A stretch of DNA of 40,034 bases from a virus (UHGV-0388909), one strand, 5' to 3'; shown: positions 877 through 39,703, numbered from the stretch's first letter. Program-made: numbers and translations. The notes: generated by a model from the letters alone, not told the origin.

Positions 877-891
877 TTACCCGAAAGGTAA
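877..891. promoter_or_regulatory. TTACC-N5-GGTAA palindrome (TTACCCGAAAGGTAA) in the divergent promoter region between the SOS gene and the tailspike
   Basis: Exact member of the genome-wide palindrome family. Confidence 0.6.
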
Positions 892-995
892 TATCTATTG
901 GTATTTATAGTCTTTTTATCCATATATGGTTTTTCAGGTAATAGAATAACCAGATATGCGGCGCAACGGGTGCTGCGACTATCTGGAGATTTAAC

Positions 996-3900
996 ATGAC
1001 GGTCTCAACCGAAGTTGACCACAACGAATACACCGGTAACGGCGTTACGACATCGTTTCCGTATACTTTTCGAATTTTCAGAAAATCAGACCTGGTTGTT
1101 CAGGTGTCTGACCTGAACGGGAACGTAACAGAATTGGTCCTGGATACTGGTTATACGGTAACTGGGGCGGGCACTTATAGTGGCGGTTCTGTGGTTCTTC
1201 CGTCTCCGCTTGCTACTGGATGGCGAATTACGATAGATCGTGTGCTTGATGTAGTGCAGGACACAGACCTTCGCAATCAGGGAAAATTTTTCCCCGAAGT
1301 GCATGAAGATGCCTTTGACTACCTGACGATGCTGATCCAGCAATGTTTTGGGTGGTTCAGACGTGCATTGATGAAACCATCTTTGCTTGCAAAATATTAC
1401 GATGCAAAGCAAAACAAAATTTCTAACCTTGCAGATCCATCATTTGAGCAGGACGCTGTAAATAATCGCTCAATGCGTAATTATGTCGATGCTGCAATCG
1501 CCGGAGTTGTTGGTGGTTTTGGTTGGTTTATTCAGTATGGTTCTGGGGCTGTGTACCGAACGTTCCAGGATAAAATGCGTGATGCTATTAGCCCCAAAGA
1601 TTTTGGAGCTGTTGGTGATGGTATAAATGACGACTCCACTGCAATAAGCGCGTGCCTTGAAGCCTCATCTCCAGGTTATAAAATTGACGGATTAGGGCTT
1701 ACTTTTAAAGTATCAACTCTTCCGGATGTCAGTCGATTTAAAAATGCTCGTTTTTTATTTGAGAGAATACCGGGCCAGCCTCTTTTTTATGCTTCTGAAG
1801 ATTTTATCCAGGGAGAGTTATTTAAAATTACAGATACACCGTGGTACAACGCCTGGACGCAGGATAAAACGTTTGTATATGACAATGTCATCTATGCGCC
1901 TTTTATGGCTGGAGACCGCCATGGTGTAAATAACCTCCATGTTGCATGGGTTCGCTCAGGAGATGACGGGAAGACCTGGACAACGCCGGAATGGCTTACA
2001 GATTTACATGAAAACTATCCCACAGTTAACTATCACTGCATGAGTATGGGGGTTGTCAGAAATCGCCTTTTTGCTGTAATTGAGACGCGGACCGTGAGAG
2101 GAAATAAACTGCAGGTTGCAGAGTTGTGGGATCGCCCAATGAGTCGCAGCCTTCGCGTTTATGGTGGTATAACGAAAGCAGCAAATCAGCAAGTCGCTTA
2201 TATTCGCATTACTGATCACGGATTATTTGCTGGTGATTTTGTCAACTTCTCAAACTCTGGTGTTACAGGTGTTACCGGGAATATGACGGTGACTACTGTT
2301 ATTGATAAAAATACTTTTACAGTTACGACGCAAAATACTCAGGATGTGGATCAGAATAACGAGGGTAGATACTGGAGTTTTGGCACATCATTTCACTCGT
2401 CACCATGGAGAAAAACCAGTCTTGGAACTATTCCTTCTTTTGTTGACGGAAGCACTCCTGTTACTGAGATTCACAGTTTTGCGACGATTAACGATAACAG
2501 TTTTGCTGTTGGCTACCATAATGGTGATATTGGTCCACGCGAGCTTGGGATACTCTATTTCTCTGATGCTTTCGGTTCTCCTGGTAGCTTTGTTCGCAGA
2601 CGCATACCTGCAGAATATGAGGCGAATGCATCTGAGCCATGTGTAAAATATTATGATGGCATTCTGTATCTGACGACCAGGGGGACATTAAGTACTCGAC
2701 CCGGTAGTTCATTGCACAGAAGCTCTGATTTAGGTACATCATGGAATTCTCTTCGCTTCCCAAATAATGTTCATCACTCAAACCTTCCTTTTGCCAAAGT
2801 TGGCGATGAGCTGATTATTTTTGGCAGTGAGCGCGCATTTGGTGAGTGGGAAGGAGGAGAACCTGATAACCGTTATGCAGGAAATTATCCAAGAACATTT
2901 ATGACCAGAGTTAACGTCAATGAGTGGAGTCTGGATAATGTAGAGTGGGTTAATGTTACTGATCAGATTTATCAGGGCGGAATAGTTAACTCTGCGGTTG
3001 GTGTTGGTTCAGTTTGTATCAAAGACAACTGGCTGTACTACATTTTCGGTGGGGAAGATTTTCTAAACCCATGGAGCATAGGGGATAACAACAGAAAATA
3101 TCCTTATGTTCACGATGGTCACCCGGCTGATTTGTATTGTTTCAGGGTGAAAATTAAACAGGAAGAATTTGTTTCAAGGGATTTTGTCTACGGAGCCACT
3201 CCTAACAGAACGCTTCCTACTTTTATGTCGACGTCAGGCGTGAGGACGGTTCCTGTACCCGTTGATTTCACAGATGATGTTGCCGTCCAGTCACTGACTG
3301 TCCATGCAGGTACATCAGGACAAGTTCGCGCGGAAGTCAAACTTGAGGGTAATTACGCCATTATTGCGAAGAAAGTACCGTCTGATGATGTTACCGCTCA
3401 GAGATTAATCGTTAGCGGCGGTGAAACAACGTCTTCAGCAGATGGTGCAATGATAACGTTGCATGGTTCCAGAAGCAGTACTCCACGTCGCGCGGTATAT
3501 AACGCACTCGAACATCTTTTTGAGAACGGAGATGTTAAACCTTATCTTGATAATGTAAATGCTCTTGGTGGTCCGGGAAACAGGTTCTCGACAGTTTATC
3601 TTGGCTCCAATCCTGTGGTTACCAGTGACGGAACATTAAAGACAGAGCCGGTCTCTCCTGACGAAGCATTGCTGGATGCCTGGGGTGACGTCAGGTATAT
3701 CGCTTATAAATGGCTGAACGCTGTCGCTATAAAGGGGGAAGAAGGGGCGAGGATACATCATGGTGTAATCGCGCAGCAACTTCGTGATGTTCTTATTTCT
3801 CACGGACTCATGGAAGAAGAAAGCACAACATGCCGCTATGCCTTTCTTTGCTATGACGATTATCCCGCAGTATATGATGACGTCATTACTGGCCAAAGGG

Positions 3901-4115
3901 AAATGCCGCTGACTGATAATGACGGGAGCATCATTGTTGATGAGGATGATAATCCAGTGATGGTAATAGAAGACATCATTGAGCGCGTTGAAATAACGCC
4001 AGCAGGATCTAGATGGGGGGTCAGACCTGATCTCTTATTCTATATCGAGGCAGCATGGCAGCGCAGAGAAATGGATAAGATAAAAGAGCGGGTTCAGTCT
4101 CTGGAAGAACGTTAA
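996..4115 (+). CDS. Tailspike/tail fibre: N-terminal anchor domain, central sialidase-like depolymerase, C-terminal intramolecular chaperone (peptidase S74-like)
   Basis: Two Asp-box motifs (SGDDGKTW, SSDLGTSW); beta-helix-type motif DFGAVGDGINDD; C-terminal ...VTSDGTLK...HHGVIAQQL... typical of self-cleaving chaperone domains. Confidence 0.75.
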   Translation: MTVSTEVDHNEYTGNGVTTSFPYTFRIFRKSDLVVQVSDLNGNVTELVLDTGYTVTGAGTYSGGSVVLPSPLATGWRITIDRVLDVVQDTDLRNQGKFFPEVHEDAFDYLTMLIQQCFGWFRRALMKPSLLAKYYDAKQNKISNLADPSFEQDAVNNRSMRNYVDAAIAGVVGGFGWFIQYGSGAVYRTFQDKMRDAISPKDFGAVGDGINDDSTAISACLEASSPGYKIDGLGLTFKVSTLPDVSRFKNARFLFERIPGQPLFYASEDFIQGELFKITDTPWYNAWTQDKTFVYDNVIYAPFMAGDRHGVNNLHVAWVRSGDDGKTWTTPEWLTDLHENYPTVNYHCMSMGVVRNRLFAVIETRTVRGNKLQVAELWDRPMSRSLRVYGGITKAANQQVAYIRITDHGLFAGDFVNFSNSGVTGVTGNMTVTTVIDKNTFTVTTQNTQDVDQNNEGRYWSFGTSFHSSPWRKTSLGTIPSFVDGSTPVTEIHSFATINDNSFAVGYHNGDIGPRELGILYFSDAFGSPGSFVRRRIPAEYEANASEPCVKYYDGILYLTTRGTLSTRPGSSLHRSSDLGTSWNSLRFPNNVHHSNLPFAKVGDELIIFGSERAFGEWEGGEPDNRYAGNYPRTFMTRVNVNEWSLDNVEWVNVTDQIYQGGIVNSAVGVGSVCIKDNWLYYIFGGEDFLNPWSIGDNNRKYPYVHDGHPADLYCFRVKIKQEEFVSRDFVYGATPNRTLPTFMSTSGVRTVPVPVDFTDDVAVQSLTVHAGTSGQVRAEVKLEGNYAIIAKKVPSDDVTAQRLIVSGGETTSSADGAMITLHGSRSSTPRRAVYNALEHLFENGDVKPYLDNVNALGGPGNRFSTVYLGSNPVVTSDGTLKTEPVSPDEALLDAWGDVRYIAYKWLNAVAIKGEEGARIHHGVIAQQLRDVLISHGLMEEESTTCRYAFLCYDDYPAVYDDVITGQREMPLTDNDGSIIVDEDDNPVMVIEDIIERVEITPAGSRWGVRPDLLFYIEAAWQRREMDKIKERVQSLEER

Positions 4116-4121
4116 AAAAAA

Positions 4122-4141
4122 GCCCGCAAAATATTGCGGGT
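4122..4141. terminator. GC hairpin after the tailspike gene, flanked by A8 upstream and an A-rich run downstream
   Basis: Stem cccgcaa/ttgcggg; better oriented as a minus-strand terminator (U8 on that strand). Confidence 0.4.
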
Positions 4142-4421
4142 ATCAAAAACGGAGTTGGTGAAAAGTTATCTTTGAATTCTATCATGAATCAGTACGTATT
4201 TTAAATACATGTTCAGGTTTATTACACCATAGCATTATTAAATACAAAATTAAGTCTATGGTTCCTGTACAACTGCCCCCACTCTGCTGGCTCGTTCTGT
4301 AAAATCATTAGTACTTTTATTGAGATATATGATATGGAACAATAATGATTCATATATGGTTTACTATGCGGGTTTAGTCATCAATAATTGACTGGCTTAT
4401 AGATAGTAAACAGGAGAAAGT

Positions 4422-6239: not shown

Positions 6240-6510
6240 TGATTTCCGGTGACGGTATATAAAACGGTACGGGAAAAATTGAGATTTGGAAAAATGTTAT
6301 CACTCAATTGGTTATGGTTATCGTAAATAATTGAGTGGGAATGATTAACAGCTAACTCATAGCAACTCATTCCTATTCAGATACTAATTTAACCCTCTGT
6401 TTTTACAGAGGGTTTTTGTTTTTATGTATTCATTTCTATTCACTCTACACCATATTTTTCGTCGGTACAGGTGACGGTATTACCTTAAAGGTATACTCTC
6501 ATACCGTCAT
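6240..6510. other. Candidate attP region with repeated arm-like sequences
   Basis: Non-coding stretch between the lysis genes and int; GGTGACGGTAT at 6249-6259 and 6470-6480, inverted partner ATACCGTC at 6501-6508, degenerate TTACC palindrome at 6480-6494. Confidence 0.35.
6393..6423 (+). terminator. Rho-independent terminator after the lysis cassette
   Basis: Stem ccctctg/cagaggg followed by TTTTTGTTTTT. Confidence 0.75.
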
Positions 6511-7793: not shown

Positions 7794-7795
7794 TT

Positions 7796-12030: not shown

Positions 12031-12107
12031 TTACCGTTGAGGTAATAATTATGCTTATTTGGTTTGGTGTCAATAGATATGAGTTAAAAAAATTACCCGT
12101 AAGGTAA
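12031..12107. promoter_or_regulatory. Leftward operator region: two perfect palindromes (12031-12045 TTACCGTTGAGGTAA; 12093-12107 TTACCCGTAAGGTAA)
   Basis: Between the repressor gene terminator and the start of the leftward operon. Confidence 0.6.
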
Positions 12108-12164: not shown

Positions 12165-12749
12165 TTATTGTTTGTTTTTTTCGTTCTGGTTGATGACAAA
12201 TTCAATGTAACTTTCGATCTTTGCTTTCTCGGTTTCGGGTAACAATGCGTAGCGTGAGCGGTCATAGTTGATAGTCGCAGGGTCGTGCGGGTGAATCAGT
12301 AGTTCATATCCGTGACGCCCGAATGCGGATGCAACATTCTCCAGGGTGGAAATGGAAACGCTGACCTCATTGTTTAACAGGCGGCTGATTGTCACCTGGG
12401 CGACGCCGGATGCGCGGTGAAGTTTTCCCTGTGTTGAAAGGTCGCGGCTTTCGCTCATCCAGCGTTCCAGGTTGTGAGCCGCCAGCTGACCTATATCGCT
12501 CGGGCCGACAGGCTGAAAACCCTCCTGAGAAAGCGAACGATCAATATCAAGCCAGTTACGGGGTTTATTGGCGGCCGCTTCAATTTTTCGTGCAACCTGG
12601 TCGCCGATAACCTTCTTGCCAAGAGCCCAGCGGTTTACCAGATTTGCCTGAGTTCCAAGTTTTTCTGCCATCCGCGTCTGAACACCATTGAATTCACGGT
12701 CGATCAAGTCGTTGAGATTTTGCCTGCGGACGTCCTGGATACTTTTCAT
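12165..12749 (-). CDS. Immunity repressor candidate: two HTH domains, no LexA-like peptidase domain
   Basis: HTH-like segments near residues 20-45 and 110-140; no GDSM/Ser-Lys peptidase motifs; divergent from the Cro-like gene. Confidence 0.6.
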   Translation of the reverse strand: MKSIQDVRRQNLNDLIDREFNGVQTRMAEKLGTQANLVNRWALGKKVIGDQVARKIEAAANKPRNWLDIDRSLSQEGFQPVGPSDIGQLAAHNLERWMSESRDLSTQGKLHRASGVAQVTISRLLNNEVSVSISTLENVASAFGRHGYELLIHPHDPATINYDRSRYALLPETEKAKIESYIEFVINQNEKNKQ

Positions 12750-12804: not shown

Positions 12805-12867
12805 TTACCCAACAGGTAAATGCACCTCATAGGTAACTATCCTTGATTTTTGTTACCTTATGGGTGA
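12805..12867. promoter_or_regulatory. Rightward operator region: one perfect palindrome (12805-12819) and two degenerate copies (12822-12836, 12853-12867)
   Basis: Three sites about 20-25 bp apart between the divergent repressor and cro-like genes. Confidence 0.6.
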
Positions 12868-12903: not shown

Positions 12904-13134
12904 ATGAGCGATAACGGACATTTCGATTTCAAAAAGCACTGGCTTGCACTTACTCCGGATGAGCGTGAAGCCTTCGCACAGGAAGCCGGAACGACGAGTC
13001 ACTATATCCAGACTCACTTAACAGGTAAGCGCAAAATGCCAGGTAAGGTATTGATGAATGGGCTTTTTAAAGCCTGTAAAACAAGACAATGGCTGCGCTC
13101 AAAAGCGGAACTGGCATACTTCTTCTACTCATGA
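12904..13134 (+). CDS. Cro-like small DNA-binding protein
   Basis: 76 aa, basic, divergent from the repressor gene. Confidence 0.5.
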   Translation: MSDNGHFDFKKHWLALTPDEREAFAQEAGTTSHYIQTHLTGKRKMPGKVLMNGLFKACKTRQWLRSKAELAYFFYS

Positions 13135-13180: not shown

Positions 13181-13284
13181 TATCTATTCGTACCTCAAAG
13201 GTAATAAAAAACCAAATCTGGTTGATCTTTTTTTTGTGTCAGCACAAAATAACCGTAATCCCAATACTAATAACAGGGCTTACC

Positions 13285-13500: not shown

Positions 13501-14334
13501 ATGAGCAGACATGCAACAGATTGGGCCTGGGAGACAGATCCAGGTAGCTCATCATTAAAGCTCATACTGCTCTCGATGGCTGACAGAGCCGATGAATATA
13601 ACCTCTGCTACCCCAGCATAGAACGCCTCGTTAAAGACACTTGCCTGAATAAAAAAACCGTGCAGGCCGGGCTTATATCGCTCATGAAAATGGGGCTTAT
13701 TTCAGATACCGGAGAGAGAAAGGGAGCGACAAAAAGAGTGCGGGTTTTCTCTCTTAATATAACCAAAAACGGGAACATTAAAGGCAACCGGGAGGGGGGC
13801 AATGATCCCGAAAACGGTAATGTTACCGAAAACGGGAATATACCCAAAAACGGGATGTTGAATGATCCCAAAAACGGGATGTTGAATGATCCCAAAAACG
13901 GGATCCAGAACCAGTCATATAACCAGTCATTTAACCAAGAGAGGGAGAGCAGGACAAAAACCGGGGATTCTGTGCCTCATGACCCCGTCGCAAACAACGC
14001 CGTGATGAATAACTTTGTTCCTCCTGGTGGGCCAGGGCAATTAGGTAAATTTGTCATGCATGAACAATGGCAGCCATCAGATGACTTTCTTCGGAAAAGC
14101 TCATTGCAGGGAATCTACCTGGACAGTCTGCCAACGGCACAGGAACTTGCAGAGTTCAGAATTTACTGGATGGCTGAGGGTAAGGCATACCATCAGGCAC
14201 AGTGGGAGCAGAAGCTGGCAAGGCGCATCCAGTTCTGTAGACAGAAATCAGGTGAAGTCAGAAAGAGCCTTGACTGGCATAACACTGACTGGATAGATGA
14301 GGTGTGGGATGAAATCAACTCCAGAACTTCTTAA
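13501..14334 (+). CDS. Replication initiator (lambda O-like organisation) with internal iterons
   Basis: N-terminal HTH-like domain; central low-complexity region encoded by iterons; position after cro. Confidence 0.6.
   Translation: MSRHATDWAWETDPGSSSLKLILLSMADRADEYNLCYPSIERLVKDTCLNKKTVQAGLISLMKMGLISDTGERKGATKRVRVFSLNITKNGNIKGNREGGNDPENGNVTENGNIPKNGMLNDPKNGMLNDPKNGIQNQSYNQSFNQERESRTKTGDSVPHDPVANNAVMNNFVPPGGPGQLGKFVMHEQWQPSDDFLRKSSLQGIYLDSLPTAQELAEFRIYWMAEGKAYHQAQWEQKLARRIQFCRQKSGEVRKSLDWHNTDWIDEVWDEINSRTS
13763..13906 (+). repeat. Iterons: about six copies of CC(C/G)AAAACGGGA(A/T), last three at 24-25 bp spacing; candidate replication origin
   Basis: Direct repeats including exact 24-bp duplication cccaaaaacgggatgttgaatgat. 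Confidence 0.7.
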
Positions 14335-15128: not shown

Positions 15129-15205
15129 TTACCTACTGGGTAATAAAATATTCTAAAATCTATTGATTTAGTGTCTTATGTGGTTTTTAATTACCTCAGG
15201 GGTAA
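15129..15205. promoter_or_regulatory. Two perfect palindromes (15129-15143 TTACCTACTGGGTAA; 15191-15205 TTACCTCAGGGGTAA)
   Basis: Second site ends 3 nt before the ATG at 15209. Confidence 0.55.
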
Positions 15206-15208: not shown

Positions 15209-15553
15209 ATGAGAAAACAGATACAGGCTCTTGGTCGACTCAAAACAGGCCAGATGAACAAAACAGAATCTGCGTATTGCCAGCACCTTGAGCAGCGTAA
15301 ACGTGCAGGGGAAATCGCCTGGTATCGGTTCGAGGGTATCAAGCTGCGGTTAGCTGATAACACGTTTTATACGCCAGATTTCGCTGTGATGCTCGCCACC
15401 GGCGAGATGGAACTGCACGAAGTGAAAGGTTTCTGGACCGACGACGCCAGGGTGAAAACCAAAGTCGCCGCAGATCAGTATCCGTTCCGAATCATCGGGG
15501 TAACGGTTAAGCCAAAGAAAGCAGGTGGTGGCTGGAACATCGAAGAGTTCTAA
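15209..15553 (+). CDS. Small nuclease-like protein, possible PD-(D/E)XK fold (DUF1064-like)
   Basis: Motif ...TPDF...ELHEVKG... consistent with a D/E-x-K active site; family not verified. Confidence 0.35.
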   Translation: MRKQIQALGRLKTGQMNKTESAYCQHLEQRKRAGEIAWYRFEGIKLRLADNTFYTPDFAVMLATGEMELHEVKGFWTDDARVKTKVAADQYPFRIIGVTVKPKKAGGGWNIEEF

Positions 15554-17537: not shown

Positions 17538-17811
17538 CCTGCAACTTGCCGTTAAAGGTGAATACTTCGATGCCATGATTCGCGGAGAGAAAACGGAAGA
17601 GTATCGCCTGTGTAATGACTATTGGAATAAGCGAATTATGTTCCGAAAGTATGACCGTCTGATTATCACAAAGGGATATCCGAAGCGCGACGATTCCAGC
17701 CGCAGAATTGATATTCCGTATGACGGATATGAAATCAAGACAATCACACATCCCCACTTCGGCGATAAACCGGTAAAGGTGTTCGCGATAAAGGTGAATA
17801 TTGATGGCTAA
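17530..17811 (+). CDS. Small hypothetical protein, possibly ASCH/PUA-like
   Basis: GTG start overlapping the previous gene; weak family call. Confidence 0.35.
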   Translation: MANLQLAVKGEYFDAMIRGEKTEEYRLCNDYWNKRIMFRKYDRLIITKGYPKRDDSSRRIDIPYDGYEIKTITHPHFGDKPVKVFAIKVNIDG

Positions 17812-18142
17812 ATCAGCAGCAGAGCGCAAAGCCGCTCAGAGAGCCAGACAAGCTGCATCTGGTGTGCGTAAGCTGGAGATTGTGCTTGATGCTCAGGAAA
17901 TTGAAATGCTGGAGCGGAACTGCGCCGCCCGGCGCCCTGGTCGAGATCCCTATGAAATGGCCGAGTACATCGCGCTGCTGATCCGCCAGGATGATGCCCG
18001 GGTGCGCGGGCGTATAAAATCGATCAGCAGAAAACGTTGCGGTAAGTGCGGCGAGAGAGTTCCAGTTAATTCATGCCCGTGTAATGGTGACTCGCAATGC
18101 TGGGTGACTAAAGGCTGGCATGAAACGAAATTAATAGTGTGA
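17801..18142 (+). CDS. Small basic protein with C-terminal Cys cluster; candidate late-gene regulator
   Basis: CGKCGERVPVNSCPCNGDSQC; last gene before the terminator and late operon. Confidence 0.35.
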   Translation: MMAKSAAERKAAQRARQAASGVRKLEIVLDAQEIEMLERNCAARRPGRDPYEMAEYIALLIRQDDARVRGRIKSISRKRCGKCGERVPVNSCPCNGDSQCWVTKGWHETKLIV

Positions 18143-18191: not shown

Positions 18192-18218
18192 GCCGCCAAC
18201 TATGGCGGCTTTATTTTG
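18192..18218 (+). terminator. Rho-independent terminator between the early-right operon and terS
   Basis: Stem gccgcca/tggcggc, loop acta, followed by TTTATTTT; lies inside the ORF-track extension of terS. Confidence 0.7.
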
Positions 18219-18228: not shown

Positions 18229-18260
18229 TTACCACAACGGTAACTATTACCACGGTGGTT
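18229..18260. promoter_or_regulatory. Perfect palindrome (18229-18243 TTACCACAACGGTAA) plus degenerate copy (18246-18260) directly before terS
   Basis: Same palindrome family. Confidence 0.55.
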
Positions 18261-18857
18261 ATGATGCCTGCTGAACCTAAAGCCTATAAACGCAAATCAA
18301 CGCAATTTAAGCCACTAACAGCAATGCAGGAGGCTTATTGCCAGTCATACATCAAAACGCCTGAAAACCAGACTCAGGCAGCGATTAACGCAGGATTCTC
18401 CCCAAATACAGCGGCAGTTAAAGCCAGTGTCATGATGCGCGATGAACGCATTCAAAAACGGATTGCCGAGTTGATGGAGGAGCGCAACAAACGAATGCGC
18501 GTCAGTGCTGATTACGTTCTCATGCGCCTGGTGGAGATCGACCAGATGGACGTGATCGACATCCTCAACGACGATGGGAGCCTTAAGCCAATCCGCGAGT
18601 GGCCGAAAATCTGGCGCACTACGCTTAGTGGCTTTGATCTGTCATCGACCATCATGAACATGAACGAGGATTCGATAGAGACAATCCTCAAAAAAATTAA
18701 ATGGCCTGACAAGGTGAAGAACCTCGAACTGATTGGTAAGCACGTCGACGTCAACGCATTCAAAGAACGCCTGGATGTTAATGTGAATGTGACAATTGCT
18801 GATCGCATAGCGGCAGCCAGGAAGAGACTGAAAGAACGTCAGGATGGCAATCAGTGA
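18261..18857 (+). CDS. Terminase small subunit
   Basis: Directly upstream of and coupled to terL; start ATG at 18261 after the terminator. Confidence 0.55.
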   Translation: MMPAEPKAYKRKSTQFKPLTAMQEAYCQSYIKTPENQTQAAINAGFSPNTAAVKASVMMRDERIQKRIAELMEERNKRMRVSADYVLMRLVEIDQMDVIDILNDDGSLKPIREWPKIWRTTLSGFDLSSTIMNMNEDSIETILKKIKWPDKVKNLELIGKHVDVNAFKERLDVNVNVTIADRIAAARKRLKERQDGNQ

Positions 18858-20329
18858 CAGATACAGCGTTATCTCCTGAAGAGCAGTTAATCGAGGATAT
18901 TGCAGGGTTCACTCACGATCCGCTTGGCTATGCCCTCTATGCGTTCCCGTGGGGGGAAGAGGGGACTGAACTGGCACATGCCACCGGCCCACGTCAGTGG
19001 CAGGCTGATGCGTTCCGAGAGATACGTGATCACCTGCAGAATCCAGAGACGCGCTATCAGCCGCTTATGCTGGCACGCGCTTCTGGTCACGGTATTGGTA
19101 AATCCGCATTCATCTCAATGCTGATCAACTGGGGCATGTCCACTTGCGAGGATTGTAAGGTCGTGGTGACCGCCAACACCGACAACCAGCTACGAACGAA
19201 GACCTGGCCGGAAATTATCAAGTGGTCGAACCTTGCTATCACGAAAGACTGGTTTACCTGTACCGCTACCGCGATGTACAGCAATGACCTAGGGCACGAC
19301 AAGCGGTGGCGGGCTGACGCAATACCCTGGTCTGAGCACAACACCGAGGCATTCGCCGGACTACACAACGAGCGCAAACGCATCATCGTGGTATTCGATG
19401 AAGCGTCGAACATTGCGGATCTGGTGTGGGAAGTTGCTGAGGGTGCGCTTACGGACGAAGACACGGAAATTATCTGGGTGGCGTTTGGGAACCCGACGCG
19501 TAACACCGGGCGCTTCCGCGAATGCTTCCGCAAGTACAAGCACCGCTGGAAGTGCGCGCAGATTGACAGCCGCACCGTGGAAGGCACAAACAAGCAGCAG
19601 CTGCAGAAATGGGTTGACGACTACGGCGAAGACAGCGACTTCGTGAAGGTCCGCGTGCGGGGGATCTTCCCTGACGCGTCAGAACTCCAGTTTATCCCAA
19701 CAGGCCTTACAGACGAGGCCATGAAGCGGGTGGTTACCGCTGCGCAGGTTGCACATGCTCCGGTGATAATCGGTGTTGACCCGGCATATTCAGGCGTTGA
19801 TGACGCGGTGATATACCTGCGGCAGGGGCTACACAGTAAGGTGCTGTGGACTGGCAACAAGACTACCGACGATCTGATTATGGCGAAGCGTATCGCTGAC
19901 TTTGAAGACCAGTATCAGGCTGACGCGGTGTTCATCGACTTCGGTTACGGAACCGGTTTGAAGTCAATCGGTGATGGCTGGGGACGTACATGGCAACTTG
20001 TTCCGTTCGGTGGCGCGTCTACTGACCCGCAGATGCTCAACAAGCGTGGGGAGATGTTCAACTCATGCAAGACATGGCTGAGGCTCGGCGGCATGCTGGA
20101 TGACCAGGAAACTGCAGACGACCTGTCGGCGGCAGAGTACAAAGTTCGTGTGGACGGTAAAATCGTTATCGAACCGAAGGAAGATATCAAGGAGCGGCTT
20201 GGGCGTTCGCCGGGTAAAGGCGATGCGCTACTGCTGACGTTTGCGTTCCCTGTGTCTAAGCGTCTGCGAATTCCCGGGCAGCAGAACCAGCAAGGCAAGG
20301 CCATTACAGATTATGATCCCTATGCTTAA
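18854..20329 (+). CDS. Terminase large subunit
   Basis: P-loop-like SGHGIGKS; acidic residues in nuclease half (VIIGVDPAYSGVDDAVI); 491 aa. Confidence 0.8.
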   Translation: MTDTALSPEEQLIEDIAGFTHDPLGYALYAFPWGEEGTELAHATGPRQWQADAFREIRDHLQNPETRYQPLMLARASGHGIGKSAFISMLINWGMSTCEDCKVVVTANTDNQLRTKTWPEIIKWSNLAITKDWFTCTATAMYSNDLGHDKRWRADAIPWSEHNTEAFAGLHNERKRIIVVFDEASNIADLVWEVAEGALTDEDTEIIWVAFGNPTRNTGRFRECFRKYKHRWKCAQIDSRTVEGTNKQQLQKWVDDYGEDSDFVKVRVRGIFPDASELQFIPTGLTDEAMKRVVTAAQVAHAPVIIGVDPAYSGVDDAVIYLRQGLHSKVLWTGNKTTDDLIMAKRIADFEDQYQADAVFIDFGYGTGLKSIGDGWGRTWQLVPFGGASTDPQMLNKRGEMFNSCKTWLRLGGMLDDQETADDLSAAEYKVRVDGKIVIEPKEDIKERLGRSPGKGDALLLTFAFPVSKRLRIPGQQNQQGKAITDYDPYA

Positions 20330-20791: not shown

Positions 20792-20994
20792 AGTCTAATC
20801 TCACCTTAAAAAAATGCCCGGCGAACCGGGCGAACTGGAAGCAATGAGTTATGCCTTCCGTGGCTGTACTGGTTTACAGCATGAAGTCATCGCAATGGCG
20901 TCCTGCTGTAAAAAGGGCGGTGATAGTCCTTCAAGGGAAACCATCACCGCCAAGCACCTGGAACTTCTGGCATCACGGTCCTTAGGCGTGATTC

Positions 20995-21071
20995 TGGCGT
21001 GGCATGCAGGATTCGAACCTGCGACCAACCGCTTAGAAGGCGGTTGCTCTGTCCAACTGAGCTAATGCCAC
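20995..21071 (-). tRNA. tRNA-Arg, anticodon UCU
   Basis: Minus-strand 77 nt GTGGCATTAGCTCAGTTGGACAGAGCAACCGCCTTCTAAGCGGTTGGTCGCAGGTTCGAATCCTGCATGCCACGCCA folds as a cloverleaf with encoded CCA. Confidence 0.85.
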
Positions 21072-21393: not shown

Positions 21394-21408
21394 TTACCTG
21401 AAAGGTAA
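21394..21408. promoter_or_regulatory. Perfect palindrome TTACCTGAAAGGTAA upstream of the portal transcription unit
   Basis: Same palindrome family. Confidence 0.55.
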
Positions 21409-21498
21409 TAATTTGTGCGTTAAATGTCAACTATCTACGATAAATAAATCATATGTGGTTAAATTGGTAATAATTTAATTGCGTACGGAGTCATTGAT

Positions 21499-33145: not shown

Positions 33146-36100
33146 TGCCGATATATGAACAGGATCCTAAAGAGTTGCTTGGCGAGGATATTCAGCAAAT
33201 AGCAGCACCTGATGACAGTAATTTCTATATGGAAACACCTTCTTTGCTTTCTGCTGTGAACCCATTTACCAGTGATCAACGCGTTCAAAGGTCTAGACAA
33301 GCAGCATTTCGTATAGATAACACGCTGGGTAGCTTTATTGCCAGTGCTCCTTTCAGTCAGTTTGACAGGGTTGAAGGATATAACCCATTTGATAACGATG
33401 CAGCAGATATTAAAGGCTATGAAGATTTTGCAGATTCGTTTATCAACTCCGGTTCGCATGAAGAAACAATGGCAATTAAACATCGAATCGATAAGCAAAG
33501 AACAGATAGAGAATATCTATCTGAAATGGGTGGTGCTGGTACTATTTCAAGCTTAGCAATGGGAATGATAGACCCGGTTAATGTGGCTGCAATGTTCATC
33601 CCTGTAGGGGCGGTAGCGCGTGGAGGAAGTATTGCTGAGACGGCAGGGCGTTTTGCCCTGGCGAATGCTGCTGGTGGGGGAGTATCAGAAGCCGCATTAC
33701 AGGCCACTCAGGAAGCTCGCTCACCGATGGAGAGCGTATCGAACGTTGTTGTTGATGCTCTCGTTGGTGGGATCCTTGGTGCTGGTGCACAGCTACTTGC
33801 TGGACCTAGCGCGCGCGAGGCAGTGGTTAACTCAGTAGGTAATCATTTGCGAGGTATGGATTCTCCTCAAAGCATTGGTGCAGCTCAGGTTTTCAATACC
33901 ACACTCGATCAGGAACAGCTCGCTGGACTTGGACTTGCTAACAAAACGTTGAGTGTCACTCCTGCTGGCCGCTTGGCGCAATCACCATCTCTTGTCTCCC
34001 GTCAGATTAACCAGCAGCTTGCCGAAAATAACTATTTCTTCGCCAAAAATGATGAGGGGTTGGCTACGTTTACGGCAGTCGAGACTAAGATTAAGCAATA
34101 CGACGCCATGCTTTATAAGCAGATGGAAGCCACTCGTGATGCTTATCAGCAGTACAGCAAATCTGTTAGCGCCCGCGGCGTGAAGAGGATGAACTTTATT
34201 GATTTCAATGAAGCTGTTGGCATGGCCATGCGCCGTGGTGATCAGAGTGATATTCCTGAGGTTTCACAAGCAGCCGCCAGAATCCGCCCCATTTTCGAGA
34301 TCACAAAAGCCCGTATGCAGGAACTGGGGATCCTTCCTGAGGATATCGATGTCGTGACGGCGAAAAGTTATCTTCCCCGCATTTATAAGTTCGATAAGAT
34401 ACTTTCCGACCGCACTGAATTCAGAGGGCGAATTGCCAACTGGATACAAGGGATTAGTGCCAAAGGTGCTGACAAGGCAGGTCAGCGAATTGAAAGGATA
34501 AATTCATTGCTAAAAACTGCAGAGGAATCGGCACCGCGCGCTGATGCTCTCGCTAGTGAAATCGCTGAAGCGGAGAAATGGTCTGGTAAAAAAATTCTAC
34601 TCATGGAAGAACTGGATAAACGAAATAAGCTTATATCTCAGGAGACTGACACACAGGCGCGTCTTACAAGAATAGAAAAAGAGTTGGCCGAGACTTCATC
34701 AGAAAAACTTCAGGCAAGAATGATGAAAGAAAGCTCTGACCTTAAAACACGCCTTGATGATATAGCGCAGGCAAAGAGTGAGCTTCCTGTCTATCAGCGC
34801 CATATGGAGTTGCTGGATAATCCACGGAAATATCGTTCTGAGCTTCGCCGACTGCAAAAACGGGCAAATTCAACCACAAGGCTGAATGCAAGCCGCGAAC
34901 GAGCACTGAAGCAGATGGAGCCTCTATCCCGAGAGGAAGCAGAGGACGCTGCTGACGAGATCGTGAATAAAATAATAGGCGCACCTTCCGGGCTTGTACC
35001 AGCCGATATTATCCCAGAGAGACTCGTTGGTCGGGCTGGTTTCACTAAAAGCAGAACGCTGCTTATTCCTGATGAGCGTATAGAAGATTTTCTTGAATCA
35101 GATGTTAACTACATCATGGAAAGTTATCTCCGGCAGGTGGCACCAGAAATTGAGCTGACTGCGCAGTTTGGCCGTAAAGATATGGGGGAGCAAATCCGTC
35201 AGGTTAGTGAGGAATATACCCGGCTAATAAAAGAGGCTAAAACACCTAAACGACGTGCAGTTCTTGAGAAGCAACGGGAGGCTGATATTAGGGATATTAC
35301 GGCTATGCGTGATCGACTGCTTGGTACTTACGGTGCACCTCAAGATCCACGCAGTTTCTTTGTTCGTGCCGGGCGAGTTGCTAGGAATATTAACTTCCTC
35401 CGTTTGCTTGGTGGAATGACTGTCTCCGCTGCAACTGATCTGATGCGACCGATGATGCAGCATGGCCTGAGAAAATCTCTCGGACCAATGGTAAGCATGC
35501 TTAAAAATATGGACTCAGTGAAAATTGCAACCAGGGATTTGCGAGAAATGGCCGTTGGGCTTGATTATGTCCTGTCTACGCGTACAAAGGCTATAGCGGA
35601 TCTTACTGACCCCTATAGCCGGAGAAGCGCCGCTGAGCGAGGTCTGAACTGGATGACGCAGAAATTCGGTAACTGGACGCTGATGAATCAGTGGAACAGC
35701 GCACTTAAATCATGGTCTGGGATGATAGTGCAGTCGAGGATACTTGACGCGGCTCGCCAAGTTTCTGCTGGTGGCACGCTCTCCAAAAGTGAAATGCGGA
35801 AGATGGCACAGGTCGGCATCAATGAAGATGTTCTGCGTCGAATCGGGGAGCAATTCGGGAAGCACGGAGAGGATATGGACGGGCTGTTAACCGGGCATAG
35901 TCATCTGTGGGATGACCGTTTCGCTAGAGAGATTTTCCAGTCTGCAGTGCTGAAAGATGTAGACTCAGTGATTGTAACGCCTGGCGTAGGTGATACACCG
36001 CTGTTTTTTAGTAAAGAAGGCTGGAAGATGATCACGCAGTTCAAAACGTTTATCTTCGCACAGCATAACAGGGTGCTGGTATCTGGTATCCAGCAGGGCG

Positions 36101-36534: not shown

Positions 36535-36535
36535 G

Positions 36536-37387: not shown

Positions 37388-37416
37388 TCAAACAGGCCGC
37401 TTTCGCGGCCTTGTTT

Positions 37417-37578
37417 TTAACGAATGCCACCGCCGCCCGGGCGGGAATCCGCAGAACGCCCACCGCAGCGGGAGCCGTCAGCAGCAGTATCGCTGTCGTG
37501 CTGACAACGACCGGCAAAGGCCTGAGTTGAAGCTACCAGAGACAACAAAACGAACAGTGCAGCAAATGCTTTTTTCAT
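37417..37578 (-). CDS. Small secreted peptide (about 53 aa with signal peptide)
   Basis: Signal sequence then Gly/Arg/Cys-rich tail; start at internal ATG 37578. Confidence 0.35.
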   Translation of the reverse strand: MKKAFAALFVLLSLVASTQAFAGRCQHDSDTAADGSRCGGRSADSRPGGGGIR

Positions 37579-37659
37579 TGTGAAATTTCCATCTATAAAC
37601 CACCTCAATGTGGCGTCAATGAGTGTAGCACTGACTTTTGTTTCGTCCATAAAAAACTA

Positions 37660-38172
37660 CTATGCAGGCTTTTTGGATTTGTACGAATAATCCCACGGAT
37701 AAACATTTCTACTAAGTGGAGCTGTATTCGTTCGTTCATGAAATAATTTTGTGAAATTCAATACGGAATCCATCCAAACTTTTGCGTTAGCTTTGGTGTG
37801 TGCGGGCGGGTCCCAATAAGCTAGTAAGGCTGCATCTCTTATTTCATTGACTGCATATATGAGATATGCGTTACTGGTTGGTTTTGGCCTGTAATTTCCT
37901 TGTTCATCAATCAATCCATATGACCACTCATCCCAACACTGTTCAGTACATGAGTATGAATATGATGCATATTCACCAATATTGACATGAACCTTTCTGA
38001 GATGGAAGCCTAATACTTCCTCTGGTCTTTCAAAAAGAGTATCTTTTCCCAGATCAGGATGATGACCATGACGCCAGTGTTGTTTAAAAGCATCTTTTAG
38101 CGAAATCAGAAAGTCATCAGTTTTAAACTCACCAGTAGGTATAACCTTCCCGCTATACTCACTCAAAAACAT
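37660..38172 (-). CDS. YafO-like toxin candidate
   Basis: Recalled resemblance to E. coli YafO blocks; overlaps the upstream gene. Confidence 0.4.
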   Translation of the reverse strand: MFLSEYSGKVIPTGEFKTDDFLISLKDAFKQHWRHGHHPDLGKDTLFERPEEVLGFHLRKVHVNIGEYASYSYSCTEQCWDEWSYGLIDEQGNYRPKPTSNAYLIYAVNEIRDAALLAYWDPPAHTKANAKVWMDSVLNFTKLFHERTNTAPLSRNVYPWDYSYKSKKPA

Positions 38173-38485
38173 CGAATTCCTCTTCCTTCATATGCGTTTC
38201 TAATGAGTTAAGCTGGCGGAAAGATATCTCTTTTGATTCTGCAGATGAGAGCTTTTTTATCCGCTTTATATTCTTTGTGATAGGAATAGACATTGTATGC
38301 ACATCAGCGGATGCTCTTGGCTTTGTGCTGATAAAAATATGGCGCAATGCCGCATTTTCACTATTGAACGAGCCAATAGCTGATTTACGTGCTACAACCT
38401 TACCAGTAAAAATACGACTCTTGCTACGCTTTGCATGAGTTCCGCTTCTTACCGGACCTCTCATCACGAATCCAAGTTTTGTCAT
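38159..38485 (-). CDS. Basic small protein with acidic C-terminal tail; candidate antitoxin of the YafO-like gene
   Basis: Upstream and overlapping the toxin candidate by 14 nt; not recognisably Phd/YefM-like. Confidence 0.35.
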   Translation of the reverse strand: MTKLGFVMRGPVRSGTHAKRSKSRIFTGKVVARKSAIGSFNSENAALRHIFISTKPRASADVHTMSIPITKNIKRIKKLSSAESKEISFRQLNSLETHMKEEEFDVFE

Positions 38486-38527
38486 CTTTAATCTCCGGTA
38501 AGTTACAGGTATAAAATAAAAACAGGT

Positions 38528-38542
38528 TTACCTTTAAGGTAA
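38528..38542. promoter_or_regulatory. Perfect palindrome TTACCTTTAAGGTAA over the promoter of the toxin-antitoxin-like operon
   Basis: Same palindrome family; identical to the copy at 39689-39703. Confidence 0.55.
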
Positions 38543-38577
38543 TAGTACGCTATTCACCCACAGTCTGCAATCTGTAC

Positions 38578-38606
38578 AGAATTATTTAAAGGCACATCCC
38601 TGTGCC
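38578..38606 (-). terminator. Terminator after the antirepressor gene
   Basis: Hairpin ggcaca-ggga-tgtgcc on the minus strand followed by U-rich sequence. Confidence 0.55.
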
Positions 38607-38615
38607 GCCGTTCTG

Positions 38616-39326
38616 TCAGAAGAACCCTGCCTTGTCGTTGATGTACTCCGCGTGCGTCTGGATATCACGCAGGCATTTGCTCACACCAACGATGTAGCAG
38701 AACATGGTGGTCAGCTCCGCCGCCGCGCCCGATACGTCGTGCCCGTCTTCCTGTAACTGGTTCAGCAAATTCATCAGCAGTGAGTTCTCCGTCAGGCCGA
38801 GAACACCAGACGGCGAATGAATCAGGCTACGGTAGCCGGGCTTCAGTGGGGCGCTGTAGGTTTTGTTCTCTATCTTCATCGCCTGCATTACTGCTGACGC
38901 CGTGGCGTTGGCTACCTGGTCGGCAACCATCTTTATGCGTTCTTCCTGCGGGAGCGAGTTTTTAATGTAGCTTCCGGTGCGGCGGATCTGAGGAAGAACC
39001 TCACCTGTAACCCATTTACGAAAGCGGTAGGGGATAGTGCCTGGTGTCACTGCGTCGCGGCAGCGGAGGATCAGTGTGTAGAGGCCTGACTCGGAGATGA
39101 TGTTGATCTCTTTTACTCGGCTGTCAAAAATTGCACGATGTTCATGCCCTATGTTGAACATAGACCTTTCATCATCATCCAGTTTTTCAAGTGCTTGGGT
39201 GACGTTTTGGATACGCAGCGCACTACAAACGTCTTGGGCTACAAACCATGGTTGGCCATCGATAATGATGGAACGGATAGGGTTAACAGATTCAAATTTG
39301 AAGATGGAAGTTTGAGCATTAGCCAT
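38616..39326 (-). CDS. Antirepressor with Bro-N domain
   Basis: N-terminal ...IIIDGQPWFVAQDVCSALRI... typical of Bro-N/antirepressor proteins; ATG at 39326 with GGAG; the ORF-track start at 39341 is GTG inside the RBS. Confidence 0.7.
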   Translation of the reverse strand: MANAQTSIFKFESVNPIRSIIIDGQPWFVAQDVCSALRIQNVTQALEKLDDDERSMFNIGHEHRAIFDSRVKEINIISESGLYTLILRCRDAVTPGTIPYRFRKWVTGEVLPQIRRTGSYIKNSLPQEERIKMVADQVANATASAVMQAMKIENKTYSAPLKPGYRSLIHSPSGVLGLTENSLLMNLLNQLQEDGHDVSGAAAELTTMFCYIVGVSKCLRDIQTHAEYINDKAGFF

Positions 39327-39341
39327 GGTGGTTATCTCCAC

Positions 39342-39620
39342 TTAGTGATTTTAATCACCACCGCAACGCCAATTACTGGTGGTGAACTGGACAAGGTTGG
39401 CGTACCGGCCTAAGTGGTACCGGCGTCCTTTCGGACCCCTGCCCAGCCCACCATAATTCGGATATAGCTGTGCTTAACGCATAAAAAAACCACGTCTGGC
39501 GTGGTATGCGCCACTTAGTAACCCGGGACGCCAATCCCGGCACTGGATTTTGCCAGTGCCCGATTACTATGGCACAAGAGGAGTGCGATGTAAATTTACC
39601 GCAAAGGTAATGATAAACGC
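39342..39620 (-). promoter_or_regulatory. Structured 5' leader of the antirepressor gene with three 8-nt elements, an internal terminator hairpin and a palindrome operator (39596-39610)
   Basis: CCACTTAG at 39338-39345 and 39511-39518; complementary CTAAGTGG at 39410-39417; hairpin ccacg-n5-cgtgg plus U7 at 39482-39504. Confidence 0.5.
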
Positions 39621-39688
39621 GAAGAAATATTAAAATCAACCGTATTTGGTTGATTGCGTTTAACGCTTGATCACCTGAAAGCAAGATA

Positions 39689-39703
39689 TTACCTTTAAGG
39701 TAA
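39689..39703. promoter_or_regulatory. Perfect palindrome TTACCTTTAAGGTAA just upstream of the RBS of the junction-spanning gene
   Basis: Same palindrome family. Confidence 0.55.

What the first reader, a model, noticed from the sequence alone, without database searches (positions are those of the whole stretch)
877..39703. Genome-wide palindrome TTACC-N5-GGTAA in front of most transcription units
Eleven perfect copies, all intergenic: 877, 12031, 12093, 12805, 15129, 15191, 18229, 21394, 38528, 39596, 39689. There are at least five one-mismatch copies (6480, 12822, 12853, 13190, 18246). For ten fixed positions, random sequence of this length would give roughly 0.04 copies. They cluster as three sites between the divergent repressor and cro-like genes and two before the leftward operon, but single copies also precede terS, portal, the toxin-like operon, the antirepressor leader and the tailspike/SOS promoter. 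This suggests one dimeric HTH protein controlling the whole genome, not only the immunity region. The spacer is often N2-AAA, which hints at an asymmetric extension.
Basis: seen in the sequence. Interest (0 to 1): 0.75.

Follow-up and report, generated by a model that had tools for sequence, protein, structure and literature searches.

The report
Known repressor operator of epsilon15-like phages
The repeated palindrome TTACC-N5-GGTAA is real and far from chance, but it is the operator of the phage's own repressor, already marked genome-wide in the public record of the related phage epsilon15, so this is a rediscovery.

Summary
There are 11 perfect and 4 one-mismatch copies (0.01 and 0.84 expected), and all 15 lie in the 9% of the genome I scored as non-coding.

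The window is a circular phiV10/epsilon15-like podophage (Uetakevirus). Its 194-aa repressor is identical to phiV10's and is a full-length homologue of Rep of Salmonella phage SPC32H (PDB 5D50). The window also carries the matching 85-aa antirepressor Ant and a perfect LexA box at the ant promoter.

The same palindrome sits at the same syntenic places in epsilon15, SPC32H, Tyrion, BUCT711 and prophages of five further enterobacterial genera. The epsilon15 record NC_004775.2 already annotates seven of these sites as 'protein_bind: repressor, lysogeny', including those before terS, before the portal module and at the ant/tail-fibre gap.

Site geometry is conserved:
- 62-bp pairs sandwich PL and a second early promoter.
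- Spacings of 17 and 30-31 bp occur at OR.
- An 18-bp pair follows the terminator before terS.

Three details are off. The homologue is a tetramer, not a dimer. The site is symmetric. The 'portal' site overlaps a conserved leftward promoter.

Verdict: already known; low interest.

The parts
877..891 (.). Perfect operator between the LexA-controlled ant gene and the tailspike gene. By my promoter reading it lies about -57 from P_ant and about -70 from P_tsp.
   Evidence: The orthologous epsilon15 site 19895-19911 is annotated protein_bind repressor.
6480..6494 (.). One-mismatch site (GGTAT) 57 bp before int, inside a larger inverted repeat GACGGTAT...ATACCGTC. The same imperfection is present in all five genomes.
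12031..12045 (.). OL1, covering the -10 edge and +1 of PL (TTGACA 12073-12068, 17 nt, AATTAT 12050-12045, minus strand).
   Evidence: PL hexamers and spacing are conserved in five genomes.
12093..12107 (.). OL2, 62 bp upstream of OL1 (centre about -62), just after the rep terminator.
   Evidence: The epsilon15 equivalents are annotated as repressor sites.
12805..12819 (.). OR site nearest rep (perfect). It overlaps a candidate leftward rep promoter, TTTACC-18-TAAATT.
12822..12836 (.). Middle OR site (two mismatches, GCACC), 17 bp from 12805. This position is perfect in epsilon15, SPC32H and BUCT711.
12853..12867 (.). OR site in the spacer of PR (one mismatch, GGTGA). The -35 TTGATT at 12843-12848 is conserved in five genomes.
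13190..13204 (.). One-mismatch site (GTACC) just after the cro-like terminator, about -60 from a candidate promoter TTGATC-17-CAAAAT. It is present in about two thirds of 80 related loci.
15129..15143 (.). Upstream operator of the second early-right promoter, placed after the replication-gene terminator.
   Evidence: The epsilon15 site 35906-35922 is annotated as a repressor site.
15191..15205 (.). Downstream operator, 62 bp from 15129, abutting the -10 (TTGATT 15163-15168, 17 nt, TTTAAT 15186-15191). It contains the ribosome-binding site and ends 3 nt before the ATG at 15209.
   Evidence: The 62-bp spacing is kept in all relatives.
18229..18243 (.). Perfect operator immediately after the terminator at 18192-18209 and before terS.
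   Evidence: The epsilon15 site 12-27 is annotated as a repressor site.
18247..18261 (.). One-mismatch partner (GGTTA), 18 bp from 18229, overlapping the terS ribosome-binding site.
21394..21408 (.). Perfect operator overlapping the -10 and +1 of a conserved leftward promoter (TTGACA 21430-21425, 17 nt, TACCTT 21407-21402). That promoter faces tRNA-Arg and the gp50-like gene. The portal-module promoter is about 82 bp to the right.
   Evidence: The epsilon15 site 2931-2947 is annotated as a repressor site.
38528..38542 (.). Perfect operator 43 nt upstream of the two-gene YafO-like toxin operon (38485 to 37660, minus strand).
39596..39610 (.). Perfect operator abutting the -35 of the isrK/C4/Bro-N leader promoter (TTTACA-17-CATAGT). 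Its centre is about -44 from the isrK 5' end at 39559.
39689..39703 (.). Perfect operator 20 nt before the ATG (39724) of a + strand 242-aa gene that runs across the circular junction.
12165..12749 (-). rep: the 194-aa repressor. It has an N-terminal HTH with the invariant helix NLVNRW, a middle HTH_3-like domain and a C-terminal domain, and no Pfam peptidase S24 match.
   Evidence: (E 4e-42 to PDB 5D50_A over the full length), (100% identical to phiV10 Rep).
12904..13134 (+). cro-like 76-aa HTH protein, divergent from rep. Its HTH AGTTSHYIQxHLT is invariant in five genomes.
543..800 (-). ant: the 85-aa antirepressor, homologous to SPC32H Ant.
   Evidence: E 4e-47 to PDB 5D50_E.
822..837 (.). 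Perfect LexA box CTGTATGTTTATACAG overlapping the -10 of P_ant.

Best explanation
The palindrome, in its extended symmetric form aTTACC-ttWaa-GGTAAt, is the operator of the phage's lysogeny repressor Rep (window 12165-12749, minus strand). Rep belongs to the epsilon15 gp38 / SPC32H Rep family.

**Binding (inferred).** A pair of N-terminal HTH domains reads each palindrome through the invariant helix NLVNRW. According to a paper that cites the SPC32H study, the homologue binds DNA as a tetramer. A tetramer has two such pairs, so one tetramer can hold two palindromes. That would explain the conserved site pairs: 17-18 bp apart at OR and before terS, and 62 bp (about six helical turns) apart around PL and around the second early-right promoter.

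**Site placement (from my reading of the promoters).**
- Overlapping core promoters: OL1 at +1 of PL, 12853 in the PR spacer, 15191 at +1, and 21394 on the -10 of a leftward promoter.
- About 55-62 bp upstream as auxiliary partners: OL2, 15129, 13190 and 877.
- Between a terminator and terS.

In the prophage, Rep would thus shut each transcription unit directly. The units covered are the early-left operon, the early-right operon, the replication-distal early unit, terS, the tRNA/gp50 unit, the ant/tailspike region and three accessory-gene units.

**Induction (inferred from homology).** Rep is not cleaved. DNA damage removes LexA from the box at 822-837, Ant (543-800) is made, and Ant pulls Rep off the DNA. 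The Cro-like protein probably uses the same sites.

**Shown here:** the sites, their non-coding location, their conservation and geometry, and the Rep/Ant/LexA-box homologies. **Inferred:** actual binding, one tetramer per pair, and repression at each promoter.
For: - **Enrichment.** 11 perfect sites against 0.01 expected, and 15 within one mismatch against 0.84. All 15 lie in the 9% of non-coding sequence, while 22 of 23 two-mismatch matches are genic.
- **Rep homology.** Rep matches SPC32H Rep (5D50_A) at E 4e-42 over residues 1-190 and is 100% identical to phiV10 and ZX5 Rep.
- **Function of an identical protein.** In ZX5, overexpressing this identical Rep abolished free phage and cut holin and endolysin transcripts by more than 99.9% (PMC9782041).
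- **Switch components.** Ant matches 5D50_E at E 4e-47. A perfect LexA box lies 22 nt from the ant ATG.
- **Prior annotation.** The epsilon15 record annotates seven sites as protein_bind, repressor, lysogeny. These sites are TTACC-N5-GGTAA.
- **Conservation.** The same motif occurs at the same places in SPC32H, Tyrion and BUCT711, and in prophages of Superficieibacter, Erwinia, Klebsiella, Citrobacter and Scandinavium.
- **Link to the recognition helix.** It is invariant although the Reps are only 42-78% identical. Distant N-terminal-domain homologues with other helices have at most one one-mismatch match within 3 kb.
- **Conserved geometry.** Promoter hexamers and the 62, 17, 30-31 and 18 bp spacings are conserved. 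The 62-bp pair is kept in 80 loci even where the region's length varies.
- **Literature.** Secondary sources state that Rep binds palindromic sites as a tetramer through N-terminal domains (PMC9638917, PMC9986798).
Against: - No binding experiment exists for this phage, and none could be run here.
- The primary papers that may define the operator were not readable: Kropinski 2007 (PMC2698709), Kim & Ryu 2013 (PMC3807360) and Kim 2016 (PMC4983836).
- The Cro-like HTH is as invariant as Rep's helix, so comparison cannot say which protein, or both, binds a given site.
- Several sites do not overlap a recognisable promoter: 877, 13190 and 39596 lie 44-70 bp upstream. No convincing sigma-70 -10 exists at terS. 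Simple occlusion therefore does not explain them.
- Promoters were called from consensus matches and conservation only, with no transcription start data.
Confidence: 0.9

Rival explanations
1. The sites outside the immunity region are bound mainly by another phage regulator rather than by Rep. Candidates are the Cro-like protein or the phrog_536 'transcriptional regulator' at 17801-18142. They would act as lytic-phase control sites, positive or negative, and not as lysogenic operators.
For: - The Cro-like HTH is invariant across genomes, in parallel with the motif.
- Several sites lie at -44 to -82 from candidate promoters, positions typical of activators.
- The late promoters carry their own conserved box, CATATRTGGTT.
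Against: - The sequences are identical to the OR and OL operators, so any protein reading OR/OL reads them too.
- The epsilon15 curators assigned them to the repressor.
- Overexpressing the identical Rep silenced lysis genes in ZX5.
- This rival does not exclude the main explanation.
Confidence: 0.07
2. The motif is the binding site of a host transcription factor that the phage has recruited.
For: The epsilon15 record predicts IHF sites next to two of the palindromes. Hosts do supply LexA to this switch.
Against: - The motif travels with the Rep gene through phages and prophages of at least eight enterobacterial genera.
- It is absent around distant N-terminal-domain homologues with another recognition helix.
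- From my own knowledge, it matches no E. coli regulator consensus I could recall: the NarL 7-2-7, MqsA, HipB, PdhR and FadR sites differ in half-site or spacing. I could not scan host genomes with a 10-base degenerate pattern.
Confidence: 0.02
3. The palindromes act as RNA or DNA hairpins, for example terminators, processing sites, or packaging or replication signals, and not as protein operators.
For: Each copy can form a 5-7 bp stem. Several follow terminators, and one pair sits beside terS, where a pac site might lie.
Against: - The hairpins are weak (-4.2 to -5.9 kcal/mol) and lack a T tract.
- The stem sequence is invariant among the 53 perfect sites in 7 genomes, with no second palindrome of compensating sequence, whereas the 'loop' is free apart from AT-richness. 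That is the signature of base-specific protein recognition.
- Many sites lie upstream of the putative transcription starts and so would not be transcribed.
Confidence: 0.01

Closest known systems
Repressor-binding sites annotated in the Salmonella phage epsilon15 record (NC_004775.2 / AY150271; gp38 repressor)
   Same: The sequence is identical (TTACC-N5-GGTAA). The syntenic positions are the same: before terS, before the portal module, in the ant/tail-fibre gap, at OL and before the post-replication gene. The spacings are the same.
   Different: - Rep here is only 42% identical to gp38.
- The window has two OL sites rather than three, and no site before the lysis cassette.
- The window has extra sites at accessory-gene units (38528, 39596, 39689).
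- The epsilon15 record does not annotate its own OR sites or the second member of the pairs.
SPC32H Rep-Ant-LexA lysis/lysogeny switch (PDB 5D4Z, 5D50; Kim & Ryu 2013, Kim et al. 2016)
   Same: - Full-length Rep homologue.
- Ant homologue, E 4e-47.
- LexA box on the ant promoter.
- No Pfam peptidase S24 match in Rep.
- SPC32H carries the same palindrome at the same places.
   Different: Rep is diverged (42% identity). This phage adds a second putative antirepressor module, Bro-N behind isrK/C4 RNAs. Tetramer formation and binding were not tested for this protein.
Lambda/P22-type OR and OL operators shared by CI and Cro
   Same: The repressor and cro-like genes are divergent, with three operators between them. 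A second operator cluster sits at the leftward early promoter. The sites are palindromic, with an AT-rich centre as in the 434 and P22 operators (my own knowledge).
   Different: - The repressor is inactivated by an antirepressor, not by RecA-stimulated self-cleavage.
- The perfect site lies on the rep side and the imperfect one on PR.
- Operators also occur at late and accessory-gene units.
Phage P1 C1 repressor with operators dispersed over the genome, including Op51 at the c4-icd-ant immunity operon (my own knowledge)
   Same: One repressor acts directly on many scattered transcription units. These include an antirepressor operon led by a C4 antisense RNA; site 39596 lies at the isrK/C4/Bro-N promoter.
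   Different: P1 operators are asymmetric 17-mers read by a monomer of an unrelated protein. There is no sequence relationship.
Mycobacteriophage L5 gp71 'stoperators' (my own knowledge)
   Same: There are many repressor sites outside the immunity region. Some lie downstream of the start or after terminators, such as the terS pair and 15191, where they could block elongating polymerase.
   Different: L5 sites are asymmetric, depend on orientation and number about 30. Here there are 15-16 palindromic sites, mostly at promoters.

Membership tests
epsilon15-type (Uetakevirus) repressor operator set | Sequence TTACC-N5-GGTAA, as in the sites annotated 'protein_bind repressor' in epsilon15. | tested here: met
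epsilon15-type (Uetakevirus) repressor operator set | Same syntenic positions and inter-site spacings as in epsilon15 and other genus members. | tested here: met
   62 bp at OL and at the second early promoter, 17 plus 30-31 bp at OR, 18 bp at terS. The single sites at the ant/tailspike gap and at the tRNA/portal gap also match.
epsilon15-type (Uetakevirus) repressor operator set | Physical binding by the cognate repressor. | not testable with these tools
   Needs EMSA, footprinting or ChIP. Only secondary literature statements about the SPC32H homologue were available.
SPC32H-type Rep/Ant/LexA switch | Rep with an N-terminal DNA-binding domain, a middle dimerisation domain and a C-terminal tetramerisation/Ant-binding domain. 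| tested here: met
   alignment over residues 1-190 to 5D50_A, E 4e-42. HTH_3-like middle domain.
SPC32H-type Rep/Ant/LexA switch | A small (about 86 aa) antirepressor Ant encoded divergently from the tailspike gene. | tested here: met
   E 4e-47 to 5D50_E. The gene is at 543-800 on the minus strand.
SPC32H-type Rep/Ant/LexA switch | A LexA box overlapping the ant promoter. | tested here: met
   CTGTATGTTTATACAG at 822-837; it overlaps the conserved -10 TACTGT.
SPC32H-type Rep/Ant/LexA switch | Repressor lacks a RecA-dependent self-cleavage (peptidase S24) domain. | tested here: met
   no Peptidase_S24 match in Pfam.
SPC32H-type Rep/Ant/LexA switch | Rep tetramer binds DNA and is released by Ant. 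| not testable with these tools
   A biochemical property. It is known only for the SPC32H protein, through.
Lambda-type CI/Cro switch | Divergent repressor and cro genes with a tripartite operator between them. | tested here: met
Lambda-type CI/Cro switch | Induction by RecA-stimulated repressor autocleavage. | tested here: not met
   no S24 domain; a LexA-controlled Ant instead. The locus works like a lambda switch at the operator level but is not a member.
L5-type stoperators / P1 C1 operators | Asymmetric, orientation-dependent sites. | tested here: not met
   symmetric consensus, with no strand bias in the spacer or flanks.

The most novel reading that the evidence does not exclude
Three related readings go beyond the existing annotation.

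1. The strictly conserved 62-bp (six-turn) operator pairs that sandwich PL and the second early promoter suggest one p53-like Rep tetramer clamping or looping each promoter.
2. The lone palindromes 44-82 bp upstream of the ant, tailspike and isrK/C4 promoters may act at a distance. They could do so through half-sites such as the GGTAA in the late-promoter spacers, or even positively. One example would be keeping C4 antisense RNA expressed in the lysogen so that the second antirepressor stays silent.
3. Together these would make a P1-like global regulon built on a lambda-like layout.

As far as I could read, none of this is described in the sources I could open.
Probability: 0.3. Interest if true: 0.4.

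Novelty: already known. Interest (0 to 1): 0.15.

Why it matters
For annotation, these 15-16 sites can be labelled Rep operators in phiV10-like coliphages, whose records currently lack them. They also mark the boundaries of the transcription units.

Biologically, the pattern confirms that epsilon15-like podophages place every module, including accessory toxin, tRNA and antirepressor units, under direct control of one antirepressor-sensitive repressor. That is useful for engineering phiV10-type reporter phages and for predicting immunity groups. epsilon15, SPC32H, Tyrion, Klebsiella phages and phiV10 all share the half-site and the recognition helix, so cross-immunity is worth testing.

It does not open a new question. 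The motif and its spread were already annotated for epsilon15, and the protein family has been studied structurally.

Tried and rejected
- **Primary papers.** I tried to read Kropinski 2007, Kim & Ryu 2013 and Kim 2016. None is held. A full-text search for the motif with 'operator' and 'phage' found nothing. Prior knowledge therefore rests on the GenBank annotation and on secondary papers.\n- **Covariation.** I looked for relatives with a changed recognition helix and a changed palindrome. The Pseudomonas phage PseuP_224 CI and the Paraburkholderia, Hydrogenovibrio and Thiomicrospira N-terminal-domain homologues lack the motif. They also show no alternative repeated palindrome. This gives only presence/absence support, not true covariation.\n- **IMG/VR search.** The viral-contig search returned 80 loci that all have a 100% identical Rep. 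They were useful only for spacing conservation.\n- **Asymmetric N2-AAA spacer.** Rejected. The consensus is symmetric and the centre is W in 50 of 53 sites.\n- **Hairpin or terminator reading.** Rejected.\n- **Site 21394 as the 'portal operator'.** Rejected in favour of a conserved leftward promoter.\n- **ORF 39373-39684 as a gene containing site 39596.** Rejected. The stretch holds isrK and C4 RNAs.\n- **A sigma-70 promoter at terS.** I could not find a convincing one.

Full report
**1. Observation**

The pattern TTACC-N5-GGTAA occurs 11 times exactly at the coordinates given, against 0.01 expected from shuffles. Allowing one mismatch adds 6480, 12853, 13190 and 18247, for 15 sites against 0.84 expected.

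- 12822 has two mismatches.
- 18246 is really 18247.

I built a conservative gene map from the ORF list and from synteny with annotated relatives. It leaves 9.0% of the window non-coding. All 11 perfect and all 4 one-mismatch sites fall entirely in that fraction (P about 3e-12 for the 11 perfect sites). By contrast, 22 of 23 two-mismatch matches lie inside genes, as background would.

**2. What the window is**

The immunity region is about 97% identical to Escherichia phages phiV10, phiv142-3 and PAS61 of the genus Uetakevirus, the epsilon15-like podophages.

The window is a circular assembly. Its last 55 nt repeat nt 48-102, and nt 1-55 are an exact inverted copy of 39938-39992. This looks like an assembler artefact.

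The regulatory genes are as follows:
- **Repressor.** The 194-aa protein at 12165-12749 (minus strand) is 100% identical to the repressors of phiV10, ZX5 and many prophages. It aligns over its whole length with Rep of Salmonella phage SPC32H (PDB 5D50_A, E 4e-42).
- **Antirepressor.** The 85-aa ORF at 543-800 (minus strand) is the SPC32H antirepressor Ant (5D50_E, E 4e-47).
- **LexA box.** A perfect box, CTGTATGTTTATACAG, lies at 822-837, 22 nt from the ant start.
- **No self-cleavage domain.** Rep has no Pfam peptidase S24 match.

The window therefore carries the complete Rep/Ant/LexA switch described for SPC32H. In phage ZX5, overexpressing the identical Rep abolished free phage and lowered holin and endolysin transcripts by more than 99.9% (PMC9782041).

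**3. The motif is already annotated in the type phage**

The epsilon15 record (NC_004775.2) carries seven features of the type 'protein_bind, repressor, lysogeny':
- 12-27, before terS.
- 2931-2947, before gp3 and the portal gene.
- 19895-19911, between gp19 and the tail fibre gene.
- 32479, 32554 and 32616, at the leftward early promoter.
- 35906, before the gene that follows the replication genes.

A pattern search shows these are TTACC-N5-GGTAA. In total epsilon15 has 11 perfect and 4 one-mismatch copies, including unannotated ones at OR.

The papers that probably describe this were not available. Secondary sources say that SPC32H Rep binds palindromic sites as a tetramer through N-terminal domains. 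They describe a middle dimerisation domain and a p53-like tetramerisation domain.

**4. Conservation and link to the protein**

SPC32H, Enterobacter phage Tyrion and Klebsiella phage BUCT711 carry the motif at the same places. So do prophages of Superficieibacter, Erwinia dacicola, Klebsiella, Citrobacter and Scandinavium.

Their Reps are only 42-78% identical to this one, yet the predicted recognition helix NLVNRW is invariant. Distant homologues of the N-terminal domain with other helices (Paraburkholderia, Hydrogenovibrio, Thiomicrospira) have at most one one-mismatch match within 3 kb.

The Cro-like protein (12904-13134) is an HTH protein weakly similar to Rep's N-terminal domain. Its HTH is equally invariant. 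It probably shares the sites, and comparison alone cannot separate the two proteins.

Fifty-three perfect sites from seven genomes give a symmetric consensus, aTTACC-t-t-W-a-a-GGTAAt. The centre is A or T in 50 of 53 sites. The spacer is 74% AT, against 47-52% for the genomes and loci sampled.

**5. Anatomy**

Aligning the intergenic regions of five genomes shows conserved promoter hexamers in fixed register with the sites.

- **PL.** The promoter is TTGACA-17-AATTAT (12073-12045, minus strand). It lies between OL2 (centre -62) and OL1 (centre +1). The two sites are 62 bp apart in four genomes and 63 bp in the fifth.
- **Second early-right promoter.** It is TTGATT-17-TTTAAT (15163-15191). It has the same sandwich, with sites at 15129 and 15191 exactly 62 bp apart in all five genomes. 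The spacing also holds in 80 further loci, even where the replication region differs in length. The downstream operator contains the ribosome-binding site.
- **OR.** Site 12853 lies in the PR spacer. Sites 12822 and 12805 follow at 31 and 17 bp. Site 12805 overlaps a candidate rep promoter.
- **terS.** Sites 18229 and 18247 fill the gap between a terminator (18192-18209) and the terS ribosome-binding site. I found no convincing sigma-70 -10 there.
- **Site 21394.** It overlaps the -10 of a leftward promoter, TTGACA-17-TACCTT, conserved in all five genomes. That promoter faces tRNA-Arg (20995-21071) and the gp50-like gene. The portal-module promoter lies about 82 bp to the right.
- **Site 877.** It lies upstream of both P_ant (about -57) and P_tsp (about -70).
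- **Site 39596.** It abuts the -35 of the promoter whose start matches the 5' end of an isrK sRNA. A C4 antisense RNA and a Bro-N gene follow.
- **Site 39689.** It lies 20 nt before a + strand 242-aa gene that crosses the circular junction.
- **Site 38528.** It precedes a YafO-like two-gene operon.

**6. Mechanism**

The most likely mechanism is that Rep tetramers occupy one or two palindromes at each transcription unit and keep the whole prophage silent. DNA damage then lifts LexA from P_ant, and Ant strips Rep from the DNA.

The paired geometry fits a protein with two DNA-binding pairs. Whether one tetramer bridges the 62-bp pairs is my inference, not a result. For sites that lie upstream of promoters, or after a terminator, simple occlusion does not suffice. 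Action through looping, a roadblock to polymerase, or even activation remains open.

**7. Rivals**

- A different phage regulator acting at the non-immunity sites is possible but does not exclude the main explanation.
- A host factor is unlikely, because the motif travels with rep across at least eight genera.
- A hairpin function is unlikely. The stems are weak and lack T tracts. Their sequence is invariant rather than covarying.

**8. Comparison and novelty**

- The feature is a member of the epsilon15-type operator set: sequence, position and spacing were all tested and met.
- The locus is a member of the SPC32H-type Rep/Ant/LexA switch: four sequence-level features were met, and the biochemical ones could not be tested.
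- At OR and OL it works like a lambda switch, but it fails that family's induction criterion.
- It resembles the P1 C1 and L5 gp71 systems only in having genome-wide sites. Its sites are symmetric, unlike theirs.

The finding is a correct rediscovery of a known, annotated feature, so interest is low. I could not confirm from the sources I could open whether four points have been described before: the conserved 62-bp sandwiches, the leftward tRNA promoter operator, the operator at the isrK/C4 leader, and the second conserved box CATATRTGGTT at the tailspike, lysis and portal promoters.

Noticed in passing
window 1-102 and 39938-40034: The window ends look like an assembly artefact. Nt 1-55 are an exact reverse complement of 39938-39992, and the last 55 nt repeat nt 48-102. 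The genome is therefore circular or permuted, about 39.9 kb, and not flanked by host DNA.
   Followed up: yes
window 39375-39559 (minus strand): Rfam finds an isrK Hfq-binding sRNA (39483-39559) and a C4 antisense RNA (39375-39458) in the leader of the Bro-N gene (38616-39341). This looks like a P1 immI-like second antirepressor module alongside the SPC32H-type Ant.
   Followed up: partly
window 921-931, 4351-4361, 21450-21460 (+ strand): A second conserved box, CATATRTGGTT, occurs only three times: in the tailspike, lysis-cassette and portal-module upstream regions. It is conserved at the same places in epsilon15, SPC32H and Tyrion. In the tailspike and portal copies it is followed by N5-GGTAAT and a -10-like hexamer. 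It is a candidate late-promoter element with an unknown binder.
   Followed up: partly
window 20995-21071 (minus strand): A tRNA-Arg (anticodon TCT) lies downstream of the conserved leftward promoter that the palindrome at 21394 overlaps. SPC32H has a tRNA-Arg at the same place.
   Followed up: partly
window 39724-40034 continuing at 103-520 (+ strand): A 242-aa ORF crosses the circular junction, so the ORF tool missed it. It has an N-terminal hydrophobic stretch (a possible membrane helix) and a weak C-terminal Stc1-like Pfam match on its 23-520 portion (23.1 bits, below the 24.8-bit cut-off). It sits directly behind the palindrome at 39689.
   Followed up: partly
window 6472-6510: The one-mismatch site before int lies inside a larger inverted repeat, GACGGTAT...ATACCGTC. 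Its right half is GGTAT in all five genomes compared, so the imperfection looks selected. It may belong to the attP arm rather than, or as well as, the Rep regulon.
   Followed up: no
window 13851-13894: Two identical 20-nt stem-loop sequences (TGGGATCATTCAACATCCCG, each followed by TTTTTGGG) lie 24 bp apart inside the DnaT-like replication gene. They may be origin iterons.
   Followed up: no
window 37660-38485 (minus strand): A YafO-like toxin gene (weak Pfam match, E 7e-4; the homologue is annotated as YafO family toxin in TL-2011b) overlaps an upstream 108-aa partner gene. The pair looks like a toxin-antitoxin accessory unit and has its own Rep operator at 38528.
   Followed up: no
window 20864-20879: A second match to the LexA-box core, CTGTACTGGTTTACAG, lies between the gp50-like gene and the tRNA. 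It may be chance: 3 matches in the window against 0.5 expected.
   Followed up: no
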